Assembly: GCA_964532925.1 (NCBI GenBank)
Contig: CAZHIP010000002.1
Location: forward strand, 21,127-85,126
Direction of reading: 5' to 3'
DNA length: 64,000 nt
From: an uncultured Gammaproteobacteria bacterium
GTDB taxonomy: Bacteria; Patescibacteriota; Patescibacteriia; GWA2-47-26
This document shows positions 47,854-50,663 of the stretch, in pieces; position 1 is the stretch's first letter; each line of letters begins with the position of its first letter. A program made the position numbers and the translations under genes. The notes beneath the pieces were generated by a model. It did not search any database. It was not told the DNA's origin and saw only the letters and a list, made by a program, of their open reading frames with translations.

Positions 47854-49137
47854 ATGAAAACCATTCAAAAACTCATTGGTCGTGAAATTTTAGACTCTCG
47901 CGGTAACCCAACTGTTGAAGTTGATTGCGTAATTGATGGCCATGTCGGCCGAGCCGCAGTACCATCCGGCGCTTCCACGGGAACTTTTGAAGCAGTAGAG
48001 TTGCGCGATGGCGGAACTCGGTATGGTGGCAAAGGTGTACAAAAAGCTGTTGGCTATGTAAACAACGAAATCGCAAACGCAGTCGTAGGTACGTCATTTG
48101 ATCAAGCTTCACTCGATGCGGCACTTATTGCACTCGACGGAACACCCAACAAAGGAAAGCTCGGAGCTAATGCTATCTTAGGCGTCTCCATGGCTTTTGC
48201 GCGCGCGACAGCATTGGCACAGAGTAAAACACTCGTGCAGTACTTGCACGAACTACACGGTTCTCCTGATTTGGTATTACCGACGCCAATGATGAACATT
48301 TTAAACGGTGGCCAACATGCCGCAGGATCCACTGACTTGCAGGAATTTATGGTCATACCAGTTGGTGCACCGAATTTTAGCGAAGCCCTACGCTGGGGTA
48401 CAGAAGTATTTCATGCACTCAAGGGTATATTGAAAGCAAAAGGACTTTCAACACTCATCGGAGATGAAGGTGGCTTTGCACCAAAACTGAACGGCAACGA
48501 AGAAGCGCTTCAGCTGATCATGTCTGCAATTGAAAAAGCAGGATACAAGCCCGGTGAACAAATTGGAATTGCTATTGATGCGGCGGCCAGCGAATTTTAT
48601 GTCGACGGCAAATACGAACTCAAAACAGAGGGAGTAAGCCTCAGCTCAGACGAGATGATCGCGCGCTACGAAGAATGGACAAACCGCTACCCGATCGTCT
48701 CGCTCGAAGATGGATTACACGAAGGGGACTGGGCCGGCTGGGCAAAACTGACCGCAACGCTCGGCAGCAAACTACAACTGGTGGGCGATGATTTGTTTGT
48801 AACCAACACCGAACGATTACAGCGCGGCATTCGTGAAAAATCAGCAAACGCGATTCTCATTAAGCTCAACCAAATTGGCACTGTCAGCGAAACACTCGCC
48901 GCAATGAAATTAGCAAAAGAAGCGGGCATGGCGTCGGTTACATCACACCGCTCCGGAGAAACAGAGGATACATTTATTGCAGATTTGGCAGTGGCAACTG
49001 GCTGTGGCCAGATTAAAACCGGGTCACTGTGCCGCTCTGAGCGCGTTGCAAAATACAATCAATTATTGCGCCTAGAAACAGAGCTCGCTGACACCGCACG
49101 CTTTATGGGTAAAAAATCACTAGCGCTATCACAGTAA
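47854..49137 (+). CDS. eno: Enolase (copy 1)
   Basis: [37 protein letters not shown]; all catalytic and Mg ligand positions present. Confidence 0.9.
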
Positions 49138-49157
49138 ACTCCGAGCGATACATCCTT

Positions 49158-50663
49158 ATGGCAAAACCGACAGTCTTAATTGTATTGGATGGATGGGGAT
49201 ACCGCGAAGGCACAGAACATAACGCCATCGCCGAGGCAAAGACTCCGTTTTTTGACCATTTGCAAGCAACCTATCCGCATTCATATCTTGATGCCAGCGA
49301 ACACCATGTAGGTTTACCTGGCGGGCAAATGGGAAACAGTGAAATTGGACACATGACCATTGGGGCGGGTTTTGTTATTGAGACAGATTTGGTTCGCATT
49401 GGAGAATCAATACAGAACGGCTCTTTCGAAAAGATTACTCCATTGCAAGATATTCTCTCATCAGTCAACCAACAGCAGGGAACACTGCATTTGATCGGCA
49501 TGATCGGGCCAGGTGGTGTCCATAGCCATAGCGACCACCTTATTGCGCTCATGAAGGCAGCAAAAAATGCAAACGTTACCGATGTTATGATTCACGCAAT
49601 TACTGACGGGCGAGATCTTTCACCAAAAAGTGCAGTGCAGTATGTATCTGAGCTCGAACACACAATGCAAGAAATCGGTGTTGGGTGTATCGCAAGTGTA
49701 TCCGGCAGATTTTATGCCATGGACCGCGATAAACACTGGGATCGCCTTGATGCTGCGTTGTCAGTAATCACGGGAGAGGCGACTGCGCCTCGTACAACAC
49801 AAAGCGCGGGCGACGTCTTGCGTCAATCATATGAACAAGGCGTGACGGACGAGTATGTTGTCCCGACTATACTTTCCGGCAAGACAGAGCCCTCATTGCA
49901 TAAAGCGGACGGTATTATTCTCTTCAACTTCCGCGCTGACCGCATGCGCATGATCACCAAGCGATTACTCGAACTACAAGAATCTATTGGCTTTGGTTTG
50001 GCAACCATGACCGAATACGATGAGACCTTCTCTTGTCCTGTATTATTCCCACCAATCGTTATCCCAACAACGCTTGCCGCTGAAGTTTCAAAAGCAAACC
50101 TCACGCAATCTCATATTGCAGAGACTGAAAAATATGCCCATGCTACGTATTTTTTGAACGGTGGTCGCGAACAACCACACCTAGGTGAGGAGCATATCTT
50201 GATCGAAAGCAGGAGAGATGTACGAACTCACGATGAAGCTCCGGAAATGCGTGCGGCAGAGATTGCTGAAGCTGCTGTTAAGCAATTAACAGACGGAAAA
50301 GATTTCTTGTTTATTAATTTTGCAAACGCTGACATGGTAGGGCACACAGCAAATCGCCCAGCCGTAGTTACCGCCATCGAAACCGTTGATTCAGCGCTCA
50401 AGAAAGTGGTTGATAGTGTCTTATCTGCAGGCGGTGTAGCAATTATTACCGCTGATCATGGCAACGCTGAAACCAACCTTGACTCAGAAACACAAGAGCA
50501 ACACACGGCTCACACTACCAATAAAGTGCCGTTTATTGTCACAAAAGGCGGCCTTACACTTGATCACGGAACCCTTGCGGATGTTGCACCAACCACACTT
50601 GCTATCATGGGACTTCCTATTCCTCCGAGCATGACCGGGAGAAATCTCGCAAGCGAACAATAG
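49158..50663 (+). CDS. gpmI: 2,3-bisphosphoglycerate-independent phosphoglycerate mutase (copy 2)
   Basis: VLDGWG, GNSEIGHMTIGAG, ADHGNAE, NADMVGHT; full length. Confidence 0.9.
   Translation: MAKPTVLIVLDGWGYREGTEHNAIAEAKTPFFDHLQATYPHSYLDASEHHVGLPGGQMGNSEIGHMTIGAGFVIETDLVRIGESIQNGSFEKITPLQDILSSVNQQQGTLHLIGMIGPGGVHSHSDHLIALMKAAKNANVTDVMIHAITDGRDLSPKSAVQYVSELEHTMQEIGVGCIASVSGRFYAMDRDKHWDRLDAALSVITGEATAPRTTQSAGDVLRQSYEQGVTDEYVVPTILSGKTEPSLHKADGIILFNFRADRMRMITKRLLELQESIGFGLATMTEYDETFSCPVLFPPIVIPTTLAAEVSKANLTQSHIAETEKYAHATYFLNGGREQPHLGEEHILIESRRDVRTHDEAPEMRAAEIAEAAVKQLTDGKDFLFINFANADMVGHTANRPAVVTAIETVDSALKKVVDSVLSAGGVAIITADHGNAETNLDSETQEQHTAHTTNKVPFIVTKGGLTLDHGTLADVAPTTLAIMGLPIPPSMTGRNLASEQ

What the first reader, a model, noticed from the sequence alone, without database searches (positions are those of the whole stretch)
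47854..50663. Second, complete copies of enolase and iPGM forming an eno–gpmI operon; both enzymes are duplicated in the window
The window encodes two full-length enolases (47854–49137 and 60852–62129, roughly 55% identical by eye, all catalytic residues intact) and two full-length cofactor-independent phosphoglycerate mutases (14323–15891 and 49158–50663), but only one pgk. Duplicating consecutive lower-glycolysis steps is unexpected in a streamlined genome. One pair may be xenologous, acquired as an eno–gpmI cassette next to tRNA-Asn and the repeat element, or one enolase may be retained for moonlighting (degradosome or surface plasminogen-binding type) functions.
Basis: partly seen in the sequence, partly recalled or inferred. 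Interest (0 to 1): 0.55.

Follow-up and report, generated by a model that had tools for sequence, protein, structure and literature searches.

The report
Acquired second enolase–iPGM operon
A tiny-genome (CPR/Patescibacteria) bacterium carries its own enolase and phosphoglycerate mutase genes plus a second, intact two-gene copy that it picked up long ago from a different CPR lineage; this is a clear but ordinary case of gene acquisition that may be replacing the native genes.

Summary
The window has two full-length enolases (52% identical) and two full-length cofactor-independent phosphoglycerate mutases (46%). All four score far above the curated family cut-offs, and their catalytic residues are intact.

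The copies are not recent duplicates or assembly artefacts. eno1 and gpmI1 group with Uhrbacteria/Komeilibacteria-type proteins, as does the host's DnaG. A related contig (L092) shows they once sat together in a pgk–SIMPL–eno–gpmI operon, which a rearrangement has since split here. eno2 and gpmI2 group, with parallel tree topologies and 100% bootstrap, with a different Parcubacteria-type clade (Nomurabacteria/Vogelbacteria for eno; Andersen-/Moran-/Buchananbacteria for gpmI).

The compact operon lies right after a conserved dnaG–rpoD–tRNA-Asn block. In one Uhrbacteria genome the tRNA is instead followed directly by the gene that flanks the operon on its far side in the window.

The acquisition is old. 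Codon usage matches the host, there is no integrase, and a sister genome has the same layout. In that sister genome native eno1 carries a frameshift, and eno2 is the slowest-evolving gene. This suggests xenologous displacement in progress.

The "repeat element" next to the tRNA is a separate, later 134-nt insertion. Lateral transfer of enolase among CPR bacteria is already published. Interest is low to moderate.

The parts
47528..47601 (+). tRNA-Asn (GTT); conserved left flank of the cassette, part of the dnaG-rpoD-tRNA-Asn block
   Evidence: ARAGORN; Rfam 75.6 bits. tRNA-Asn follows rpoD within 1.5 kb on the same strand in 7 of 67 related loci.
47589..47722 (+). 134-nt miniature insertion in the 3' end of tRNA-Asn. 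It has its own terminator hairpin and a conserved core, and it duplicates CCACCCTCGGAG. It is later than and unrelated to the cassette.
   Evidence: Absent from relative L004. Direct repeat D12 and core repeat D3, shared with the region after tRNA-Trp. No Rfam family.
47737..47764 (+). Terminator-like hairpin plus T-run that ends the tRNA-Asn transcript
   Evidence: Read directly from the sequence. Conserved in the relative.
47785..47813 (+). Putative eno2 promoter, TTGTAT-17 nt-TAAAAT. Inferred; it falls below the scan's threshold.
   Evidence: Sequence. Both hexamers are largely conserved in the relative, TTGTCT / TAGAAT. Not listed by the consensus scan.
47822..47839 (+). Leader hairpin followed by a T-rich tract just before the eno2 start codon; possible regulatory structure
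   Evidence: The stem is conserved in the relative, with changes in the loop.
47854..49137 (+). eno2, the acquired enolase (427 aa)
49158..50663 (+). gpmI2, the acquired cofactor-independent phosphoglycerate mutase (501 aa)
50690..51102 (+). Two small ORFs (about 55 aa, and an 80-aa OmdA-like ORF) between gpmI2 and the ancestral right flank. They may belong to the inserted segment.
   Evidence: Gene calls on the identical Logan contig L001.
51127..51648 (+). PF06983-family gene (173 aa). It is the right flank of the cassette. In Uhrbacteria locus L027 its homolog sits directly after tRNA-Asn.
58829..60028 (+). pgk, the only copy found; first gene of the native pgk-SIMPL-eno1 block
   Evidence: Synteny with L092.
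60052..60846 (+). SIMPL/DUF541 gene between pgk and eno1, a conserved partner in related genomes
60852..62129 (+). eno1, the native enolase (425 aa); its stop overlaps the start of an Nramp gene (62126-63376)
14323..15891 (+). gpmI1, the native iPGM (522 aa), now separated from eno1 by about 45 kb
63548..63686 (+). Second copy of the miniature tRNA-associated element, after tRNA-Trp (63476-63547)

Best explanation
eno2-gpmI2 is a two-gene operon for the reversible steps 3-phosphoglycerate <-> 2-phosphoglycerate <-> phosphoenolpyruvate. An ancestor of this bacterium acquired it by horizontal transfer from a different Parcubacteria lineage. The host is a Patescibacteria/CPR organism nearest to Uhrbacteria-type genomes. 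The operon landed immediately downstream of the conserved dnaG-rpoD-tRNA-Asn block.

The genome's own enolase and iPGM (eno1, gpmI1) descend vertically from an ancestral pgk-SIMPL-eno-gpmI operon. A rearrangement has since split that operon between eno and gpmI.

All four genes still look catalytically competent, so the genome is currently redundant for these two steps. The acquired pair appears to be the better-conserved set, and the native pair appears to be drifting. The situation is best read as xenologous gene displacement caught before completion.

Shown: the identity and intactness of the genes, the two phylogenetic affinities, the ancestral synteny of the native pair, the shared layout in a sister genome, and the absence of compositional or mobile-element signatures. 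Inferred: the direction of transfer and the donor, co-transcription from the putative promoter, which pair carries the flux, and that the native pair is on its way out.
For: 1. Two deep enolase clades. eno2 plus its close relatives (91, 86 and 78% identical) fall with Nomurabacteria/Vogelbacteria-type enolases (64-67% id). eno1 plus its relatives nest among Uhrbacteria/Buchananbacteria-type enolases (58-63% id). The split has 100/100 NJ bootstrap support.

2. gpmI shows the same pattern. gpmI1 falls with Komeilibacteria/Uhrbacteria-type proteins (51-58% id). gpmI2 plus the relative plus the L010 copy are sister to a large Andersen-/Moran-/Buchananbacteria-type clade, which parallels the eno2 topology.

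3. The host's DnaG finds almost only Uhrbacteria, Kerfeld-, Komeili- and Falkowbacteria genomes among GTDB species representatives. RpoD is 63-68% identical to these, against about 51% to Levyibacteriota and WWE3.

4. L092, whose enolase is the closest outgroup to eno1 at 63%, has pgk-SIMPL-eno-gpmI-fpg-HPF-zupT-PAP2-..-mltG-pepA. That is the window's pgk-SIMPL-eno1 block joined to its gpmI1-(murC-murB)-HPF-zupT-PAP2-mltG-pepA block. An eno-gpmI1-type adjacency also occurs in L093, L094 and L095.

5. None of the 79 Uhrbacteria-like dnaG loci has eno or gpmI within 10 kb. In L027, tRNA-Asn is followed directly by the homolog of window 51127-51648.

6. eno-gpmI adjacency travels with the eno2 type in L004, L010 and L011.

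7. The sister genome has the same layout. GC, GC3 and codon usage of eno2 and gpmI2 fall within the host range.

8. Non-synonymous divergence between the window and the sister genome: eno2 0.065, eno1 0.133, gpmI2 0.133, pgk 0.19.

9. The sister's eno1 has a 1-nt deletion at about codon 24 in three separate run assemblies.

10. eno1 and gpmI1 carry substitutions at columns that are invariant or nearly so in the homologs: A42V (237/238) and A68T (238/238) in eno1, E66Q and A397S (119/119) in gpmI1. eno2 and gpmI2 deviate only at less conserved columns.

11. Catalytic and metal-binding residues are intact.
Against: - The host genome is not among the GTDB representatives. Its nearest DnaG matches are only 33-41% identical, and that scan is biased by the peptide patterns it uses. 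Host placement therefore rests on one marker plus synteny, not on a phylogenomic tree.
- The trees are NJ on selected top hits and have no outgroup.
- The eno2 clade is sister to, not nested within, the sampled Nomura/Vogel-type clade, so the donor is unidentified.
- gpmI2-type proteins also occur in Buchananbacteria, a relative of Uhrbacteria. The two gpmI types therefore do not map cleanly onto two lineages.
- The 'empty site' rests on one distant genome.
- dS is saturated, so dN/dS says little.
- The frameshift could be a population variant or an assembly error, and it leaves a 386-aa ORF.
- The conserved-column test for gpmI is biased, because 113 of 119 reference sequences are of the gpmI2 type.
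- There are no expression data.
Confidence: 0.7

Rival explanations
1. Ancient paralogy. Both enolase types and both iPGM types existed in an early Parcubacteria ancestor, and most lineages lost one or the other. This lineage kept both, so no horizontal transfer is needed.
For: Another CPR contig (L093) has two iPGM genes in tandem. gpmI2-type proteins are named from both Buchananbacteria and Moranbacteria. The eno2 clade branches as sister to, not inside, the sampled Nomura/Vogel-type clade. Composition gives no sign of foreign origin.
Against: Named members of the two enolase clades do not overlap: Uhr/Buchanan on one side, Nomura/Vogel on the other. Contigs with the nearest eno1 or gpmI1 homologs (L092, L094, L095) show a single eno-gpmI pair in the stretch held; L093 adds a second iPGM of a third type, not an eno2/gpmI2-type pair. 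No eno or gpmI follows rpoD-tRNA-Asn in 79 related loci. The eno2-type gene sits in unrelated contexts in L010, L011, L012 and L096. Published CPR enolase trees already indicate lateral transfer (PMC7304191).
Confidence: 0.12
2. Functional specialisation. Whatever their origin, both pairs are kept by selection because they do different jobs. Examples would be glycolytic versus gluconeogenic direction, different metal (Mn2+) regimes, different expression conditions, or a moonlighting role for one enolase.
For: Both pairs have stayed intact since before the split from the sister genome, with low dN. They lie in different operons. eno1 is translationally coupled to an Nramp Mn/Fe transporter, and eno2 has a conserved leader hairpin.
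Against: The sister genome's eno1 is frameshifted in three assemblies, which argues that eno1 is dispensable when eno2 is present. No residue change suggests a new activity. No data bear on expression, localisation or partners. The Nramp gene is absent after eno1 in the sister genome.
Confidence: 0.2
3. Assembly or binning artefact. The second pair belongs to a different organism, or to collapsed strain variants joined into one contig.
For: The source is a metagenome-assembled genome. Short-read contigs break near the tRNA-associated repeats.
Against: The copies are only 52% and 46% identical, so they cannot be strain variants. The same order, rpoD-tRNA-Asn-eno2-gpmI2 ... pgk-SIMPL-eno1, occurs on a single 28-kb contig from an unrelated study. 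Composition is uniform.
Confidence: 0.02

Closest known systems
Lateral transfer of lower-glycolysis genes among CPR bacteria (Jaffe et al. 2020, BMC Biol 18:69, PMC7304191)
   Same: That study reports that enolase, and to a lesser degree PGM and pyruvate kinase, are patchily distributed in CPR. [quoted passage not shown] The present case is an enolase of one Parcubacteria type sitting in a genome of another type.
   Different: Here the acquired and native copies coexist on one contig. The transfer involves a linked eno-gpmI pair with congruent trees, the ancestral operon of the native pair can be reconstructed, and a sister genome shows the native enolase disrupted. My literature searches found no report of such co-resident pairs.
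Xenologous (non-orthologous-origin) gene displacement, as defined in comparative genomics (from general knowledge)
   Same: A horizontally acquired ortholog coexists with the native gene and then replaces it. The signature is phylogenetic incongruence together with the native copy in ancestral synteny.
   Different: Displacement is incomplete here: all four genes are intact in this genome. Only indirect signs point to decay of the native pair, namely higher dN, unusual substitutions, and a frameshift in the sister genome.
tRNA-gene-targeted genomic islands / integrative elements
   Same: The cassette lies directly 3' of a tRNA gene. One distant relative has an unoccupied site.
   Different: There is no integrase or other mobility gene. 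No tRNA-3'-end repeat brackets the cassette, and there is no compositional deviation. The only tRNA-end duplication belongs to a separate 134-nt element that is absent from the sister genome.
Canonical bacterial enolase (e.g. B. subtilis 4A3R, E. coli 1E9I) and Mn-dependent iPGM (G. stearothermophilus 1EJJ)
   Same: Alignments run the full length, with E-values of 1e-138 (eno1 against 4A3R) and 1e-139 (gpmI1 against 1EJJ). All catalytic and metal-binding motifs are present in both copies of each enzyme.
   Different: eno1 has PSGVSTG instead of PSGASTG, and SGETLD instead of SGETED. gpmI1 has GNSQVGH instead of GNSEVGH. The effects of these changes are unknown.

Membership tests
Enolase / phosphopyruvate hydratase (TIGR01060; Pfam PF03952 + PF00113) | Full-length match above the curated equivalog cut-off, with both the N-terminal and the TIM-barrel domain | tested here: met
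   eno2 scores 617 bits and eno1 579 bits against a cut-off of 300. Both domains are present in each.
Enolase / phosphopyruvate hydratase (TIGR01060; Pfam PF03952 + PF00113) | Catalytic and metal-binding residues: the Ser of the PSGxSTG loop, His of NGGxHA, Glu of QExM, Glu of GDEGG, the Asp/Glu/Asp Mg ligands (D-AASEF, S-ED, GDDL), Lys of LIKxNQIG, the His-Arg-Ser of SHRSGET, and Lys of (I/M)KxG | tested here: met
   Pairwise alignment and the eno1 alignment to 4A3R. Of 127 columns conserved at 95% or more in 238 homologs, eno2 deviates at 2 and eno1 at 4, none of them catalytic.
Enolase / phosphopyruvate hydratase (TIGR01060; Pfam PF03952 + PF00113) | 2-PG dehydratase activity | not testable with these tools
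   Needs an enzyme assay or complementation of an eno mutant.
Cofactor-independent phosphoglycerate mutase, iPGM/GpmI (TIGR01307; PF06415 + PF01676) | Full-length match above the curated equivalog cut-off, with the iPGM_N insert inside the metalloenzyme domain | tested here: met
   gpmI2 scores 577 bits and gpmI1 586 bits against a cut-off of 330.65.
Cofactor-independent phosphoglycerate mutase, iPGM/GpmI (TIGR01307; PF06415 + PF01676) | Phospho-acceptor Ser62, Mn ligands (Asp12, Asp403, His407, Asp444, His445, His462) and substrate-binding residues (His123, Arg153, Asp154, Arg185, Arg191, Arg261, Arg264, Lys336), in 1EJJ numbering recalled from memory | tested here: met
   All are present in gpmI1 in the alignment to 1EJJ. 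All the corresponding positions are invariant between gpmI1 and gpmI2.
tRNA-targeted genomic island / integrative element | Integrase or other mobility gene within the inserted segment | tested here: not met
   Genes between tRNA-Asn and pgk are eno, gpmI, OmdA-like, PF06983, DoxX, MarR, FMN reductase, TerC, VKOR, an oxidoreductase and hypotheticals. None is an integrase or transposase.
tRNA-targeted genomic island / integrative element | Direct repeat of the tRNA 3' end at the far boundary of the inserted segment | tested here: not met
   The only copy of the tRNA-Asn 3' end lies 134 nt downstream. It belongs to a mini-element that is absent from the sister genome.
tRNA-targeted genomic island / integrative element | Composition or codon usage different from the host | tested here: not met
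   eno2 has GC 0.488 and GC3 0.437; gpmI2 has 0.475 and 0.426. The window means are 0.47 and 0.457. Codon-usage distance is mid-range.
Xenologous gene acquisition / displacement | Gene tree places the extra copy with a lineage other than the host's, while the other copy agrees with host markers | tested here: met
   Host placement rests on DnaG, RpoD and synteny only.
Xenologous gene acquisition / displacement | Native copy retained in ancestral gene order; extra copy at a site that is unoccupied in relatives | tested here: met
   L092 synteny. No eno or gpmI after rpoD in 79 loci. L027 has tRNA-Asn followed by the homolog of window 51127-51648. This is a single empty-site example.
Xenologous gene acquisition / displacement | Loss or decay of the native copy in some descendants | tested here: inconclusive
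   A 1-nt deletion in the sister genome's eno1 is seen in three run assemblies. Reads were not inspected. The fate of gpmI1 in that genome is unknown.

The most novel reading that the evidence does not exclude
The two pairs are not redundant. An ultra-small symbiont-type genome deliberately maintains two differently regulated lower-glycolysis modules. One is the native eno1, coupled to a Mn/Fe transporter. The other is the acquired eno2-gpmI2 behind a conserved leader hairpin. They would serve different flux directions, metal regimes or host-association states. A separate possibility is that the 134-nt elements, which insert precisely into tRNA 3' ends and regenerate them, are a new kind of miniature tRNA-targeting mobile element in CPR bacteria.
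Probability: 0.15. Interest if true: 0.55.

Novelty: new member of a known kind. Interest (0 to 1): 0.3.

Why it matters
CPR/Patescibacteria genomes are about 1 Mb and are usually thought to shed redundancy. A genome that holds both the native and an acquired copy of two consecutive glycolytic enzymes is therefore a concrete intermediate for the process already inferred from patchy distributions and incongruent trees: loss plus lateral transfer of lower-glycolysis genes among CPR lineages.

The case offers several things:
- A reconstructable 'before' state, the pgk-SIMPL-eno-gpmI operon.
- An identifiable insertion site, after rpoD-tRNA-Asn.
- A sister genome in which the native enolase is already broken.

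It is a useful worked example for annotation and for metabolic reconstructions that count gene copies. It does not change what is known about either enzyme or about gene transfer.

Tried and rejected
1. The tRNA-3'-end repeat at 47723-47740 as an att remnant of the cassette. Rejected. The repeat bounds a 134-nt insertion that the sister genome lacks, although that genome already has eno2-gpmI2.

2. Compositional evidence for foreign origin (GC, GC3, codon usage). There is none.

3. Rfam search of the whole window and of the tRNA-eno2 spacer. It found only tRNAs, with no riboswitch or known sRNA above threshold.

4. Exact look-up of the 427-aa eno2 protein. It is not on record, probably because a different start codon was called.

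5. Cluster-member look-up to obtain the organism name. No names were returned.

6. Treating 'Candidatus Paceibacterota' in hit names as meaning class Paceibacteria. Rejected. In the NCBI taxonomy copy it is a synonym of the whole phylum (Minisyncoccota), so only Nomurabacteria and Vogelbacteria names were used. NCBI taxonomy does not resolve classes within the Parcubacteria group. The assignment of these names to GTDB classes ABY1 and Paceibacteria comes from my memory.

7. dN/dS as a test of relaxed selection. dS is saturated (1.5 to more than 3), so only dN is informative.

8. The apparent truncation of the sister genome's eno1 (386 aa). It is a 1-nt frameshift, not a shorter gene.

9. Searching for the sample accession in the literature. 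Nothing was found.

10. Not used, because they were not needed: structure prediction, the representative-protein search, and the metagenome-contig scan.
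Full report
**1. The observation**

- eno2, 47854-49137, 427 aa.
- eno1, 60852-62129, 425 aa.
- gpmI2, 49158-50663, 501 aa.
- gpmI1, 14323-15891, 522 aa.

The enolases match the NCBIfam enolase equivalog TIGR01060 at 617 and 579 bits against a cut-off of 300. The mutases match the iPGM equivalog TIGR01307 at 577 and 586 bits against a cut-off of 331. All four have the expected Pfam domain pairs.

The enolases are 52% identical and the mutases 46%. eno2 and gpmI2 are 20 nt apart on the + strand. 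I found one pgk, at 58829-60028. tRNA-Asn lies at 47528-47601, 252 nt upstream of eno2.

**2. Are all four genes intact?**

I aligned 238 enolase homologs and 119 iPGM homologs and looked at columns conserved at 95% or more.
- eno2 deviates at 2 of 127 such columns, and gpmI2 at 2 of 123.
- eno1 deviates at 4 of 127. Two of these are A42V in the PSGASTG loop (A in 237/238 homologs) and A68T (A in 238/238).
- gpmI1 deviates at 9 of 123. Two of these are E66Q next to the phospho-serine and A397S, both invariant in 119/119. This reference set is dominated by gpmI2-type sequences, so the count for gpmI1 is biased upward.

No catalytic or metal-binding residue is changed. eno1 aligns end to end with B. 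subtilis enolase 4A3R, with all motifs present. gpmI1 aligns end to end with G. stearothermophilus iPGM 1EJJ. The nucleophile Ser, the Mn ligands and the substrate-binding Arg/Lys/His residues are all present (residue list recalled from memory). The same positions are invariant between gpmI1 and gpmI2.

**3. It is not an artefact**

A Logan assembly of run SRR13608730 is 100% identical to window 50852-63573.

A 28-kb contig from an unrelated project (ERR7850086, loci L004 and L007) has the end of rpoD, tRNA-Asn, eno2 (91% aa identity), gpmI2 (81%), then VKOR, an oxidoreductase, pgk (73%), SIMPL, eno1 (79%) and tRNA-Trp, in the same order. Both enolases are therefore physically linked in two genomes, and the second pair predates their divergence.

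**4. Who is the host?**

The window encodes a typical Patescibacteria set: murG/E/C/B, ftsEX, greA, dnaG, rpoD, many hypotheticals, and an ELWxxDGT-repeat protein.

A scan of GTDB species representatives with DnaG found no close relative; the best matches are 33-41% identical. The 79 loci it returned are named almost entirely Uhrbacteria, with Kerfeld-, Komeili- and Falkowbacteria and unnamed Patescibacteria. RpoD is 63-68% identical to these, against about 51% to Levyibacteriota and WWE3.

From memory, these names fall in GTDB class ABY1. NCBI taxonomy does not resolve this. The name 'Candidatus Paceibacterota' turned out to be a synonym for the whole phylum, so I ignored it.

**5. Two origins**

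*Enolase.*
- The best named relatives of eno1 are Uhrbacteria and Buchananbacteria, at 58-63%.
- The best named relatives of eno2 are Nomurabacteria and Vogelbacteria, at 64-67%, after three unnamed close relatives at 91, 86 and 78%.
- In an NJ tree of 49 sequences the two groups form two deep clades, split with 100/100 bootstrap support. eno1 nests in the Uhr/Buchanan-type clade. The eno2 group is sister to the Nomura/Vogel-type clade.

*iPGM.*
- A profile search with both iPGMs gave the same picture.
- gpmI1-type proteins (522-546 aa) come from Komeilibacteria and Uhrbacteria, at 51-58%.
- gpmI2-type proteins (500-517 aa) come from Andersen-, Moran- and Buchananbacteria, at 53-58%.
- In the tree, gpmI2, the sister genome's copy and the L010 copy together are sister to the rest of their clade. 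This mirrors the eno2 topology. The two genes of the cassette therefore share a history.

**6. The native pair was once an operon**

Contig L092 carries the nearest outgroup enolase to eno1 (63%). Its gene order is gap-queA-pgk-SIMPL-eno-gpmI-fpg-HPF-zupT-PAP2-(NTP transferase)-mltG-pepA.

The window has pgk-SIMPL-eno1 at 58.8-62.1 kb. It has gpmI1-murC-murB-HPF-zupT-PAP2-mltG-pepA at 14.3-22.7 kb. Orthologs across these blocks are 41-63% identical to L092.

Other contigs show related arrangements.
- A Uhrbacteria contig (L094) has eno-gpmI.
- L095 has eno-gpmI-PAP2.
- L093 has pgk-eno followed by two iPGM genes.

The simplest reading is that eno1 and gpmI1 are the vertically inherited pair, and that a rearrangement cut the operon between them. 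By contrast, contigs carrying the eno2 type (L010, L011, L012, L096) share essentially only eno and gpmI with the window, and they place these genes in unrelated contexts.

**7. The insertion site**

dnaG-rpoD is conserved in 67 of the 79 Uhrbacteria-like loci. tRNA-Asn follows rpoD within 1.5 kb on the same strand in seven of them. None has eno or gpmI within 10 kb.

In Uhrbacteria locus L027 the tRNA-Asn is interrupted by a group I intron (RF00028, 81 bits). It is followed 90 nt later by a homolog (49%, E = 5e-47) of window gene 51127-51648. In the window, that gene is the first one after eno2-gpmI2 and two small ORFs.

This single distant 'empty site' suggests that about 3.4 kb (47741-51126) was inserted between tRNA-Asn and that gene.

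No mobility gene lies nearby. No repeat brackets the cassette. GC (0.49 and 0.48), GC3 and codon usage are indistinguishable from host genes. The event is old and fully ameliorated.

**8. The 'repeat element'**

Compared with the sister genome, the window has an extra 134 nt inside the 3' end of tRNA-Asn (47589-47722). It contains a terminator hairpin and a GC-rich core, and it duplicates CCACCCTCGGAG.

The same architecture follows tRNA-Trp at 63548-63686. The core is also present after tRNA-Trp in the sister genome. Rfam has nothing like it.

The sister genome has the cassette but not the tRNA-Asn copy of this element. The element is therefore a later, independent insertion and not a boundary of the cassette.

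**9. Expression signals (inferred)**

After the tRNA terminator hairpin (47737-47764) there is a TTGTAT-17-TAAAAT motif at 47785-47813. A hairpin plus T-tract lies at 47822-47839, just before the start codon. Both are conserved in the sister genome. The promoter motif falls below the consensus scan's threshold, so it remains a suggestion.

**10. Which pair matters?**

Between the window and the sister genome, eno2 is the most conserved gene: 90% aa identity and dN 0.065. eno1 and gpmI2 both have dN 0.133, and pgk 0.19. dS is saturated.

The sister genome's eno1 has a 1-nt deletion at about codon 24, identical in assemblies of three runs. It leaves a 34-codon stub and a 386-aa ORF.

Together with the unusual substitutions in eno1 and gpmI1, this fits relaxed constraint on the native pair once a second pair was present. 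That is xenologous displacement in progress. This step is inference. Reads, expression and activities were not available.

**11. Comparison with what is known**

Jaffe et al. 2020 (PMC7304191) showed that enolase and PGM are patchy across CPR. [quoted passage not shown] My literature searches found no description of co-resident native and acquired eno-gpmI pairs.

The finding is therefore a well-resolved new example of a known process. It is not a new kind of system.

**12. Verdict**

The xenologous cassette next to tRNA-Asn holds. The link to the repeat element and the idea of a recent island do not. Moonlighting could not be tested.
- Confidence in the acquired-cassette explanation is 0.7.
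- Interest is 0.3.

Noticed in passing
window 47589-47722 and 63548-63686; L007 11385-11432: A miniature element of about 134-139 nt is inserted exactly in or after the 3' end of tRNA-Asn and tRNA-Trp. Each copy has a terminator hairpin, a shared GC-rich core (GCGCAGCGCCCAGGCCYGAGTCGGAGCGAKGGGA) and a duplicate of that tRNA's own 3' end. The tRNA-Asn copy is absent from the sister genome. There is no Rfam match. Short-read contigs break at it.
   Followed up: partly
L027 14335-14681: In a Uhrbacteria genome (CAWIHE010000004.1) the tRNA-Asn downstream of rpoD is interrupted by a group I intron (RF00028, 81 bits). ARAGORN missed this tRNA.
   Followed up: partly
L093 8460-11596: Another CPR contig (822 kb) has two iPGM genes in tandem after pgk-eno. 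One is of the gpmI1 type (531 aa). The other is a third, divergent type (514 aa, about 38% identical to both window copies).
   Followed up: partly
L007 9941-10001 (also L008, L009): The sister genome's native enolase (eno1 ortholog) has a 1-nt deletion at about codon 24. It is identical in assemblies of three sequencing runs, so the gene is a probable recent pseudogene.
   Followed up: partly
window 1674-4042: Two adjacent ORFs (483 and 275 aa) have GC of about 0.62 against a background of 0.47. The 483-aa ORF has the most deviant codon usage in the window. Neither has a Pfam or NCBIfam match. They may be recently acquired or low-complexity genes.
   Followed up: no
window about 25000-38000: GC skew changes from positive to negative although most genes stay on the + strand. 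This is consistent with a replication terminus or with a recent large rearrangement, possibly the one that separated eno1 from gpmI1.
   Followed up: no
window 62126-63376: An Nramp-family Mn/Fe transporter gene overlaps the eno1 stop codon by 4 nt. It is absent from the sister genome, where tRNA-Trp follows eno1 directly.
   Followed up: no
L016 13035-14151: A related Patescibacteria genome has two tRNA-Asn genes 1 kb apart directly after rpoD. This hints that the site is prone to insertions.
   Followed up: no
window 31887-34187: A 766-aa protein contains eight ELWxxDGT repeats (TIGR04534, 452 bits). It follows two glycosyltransferase genes.
   Followed up: no
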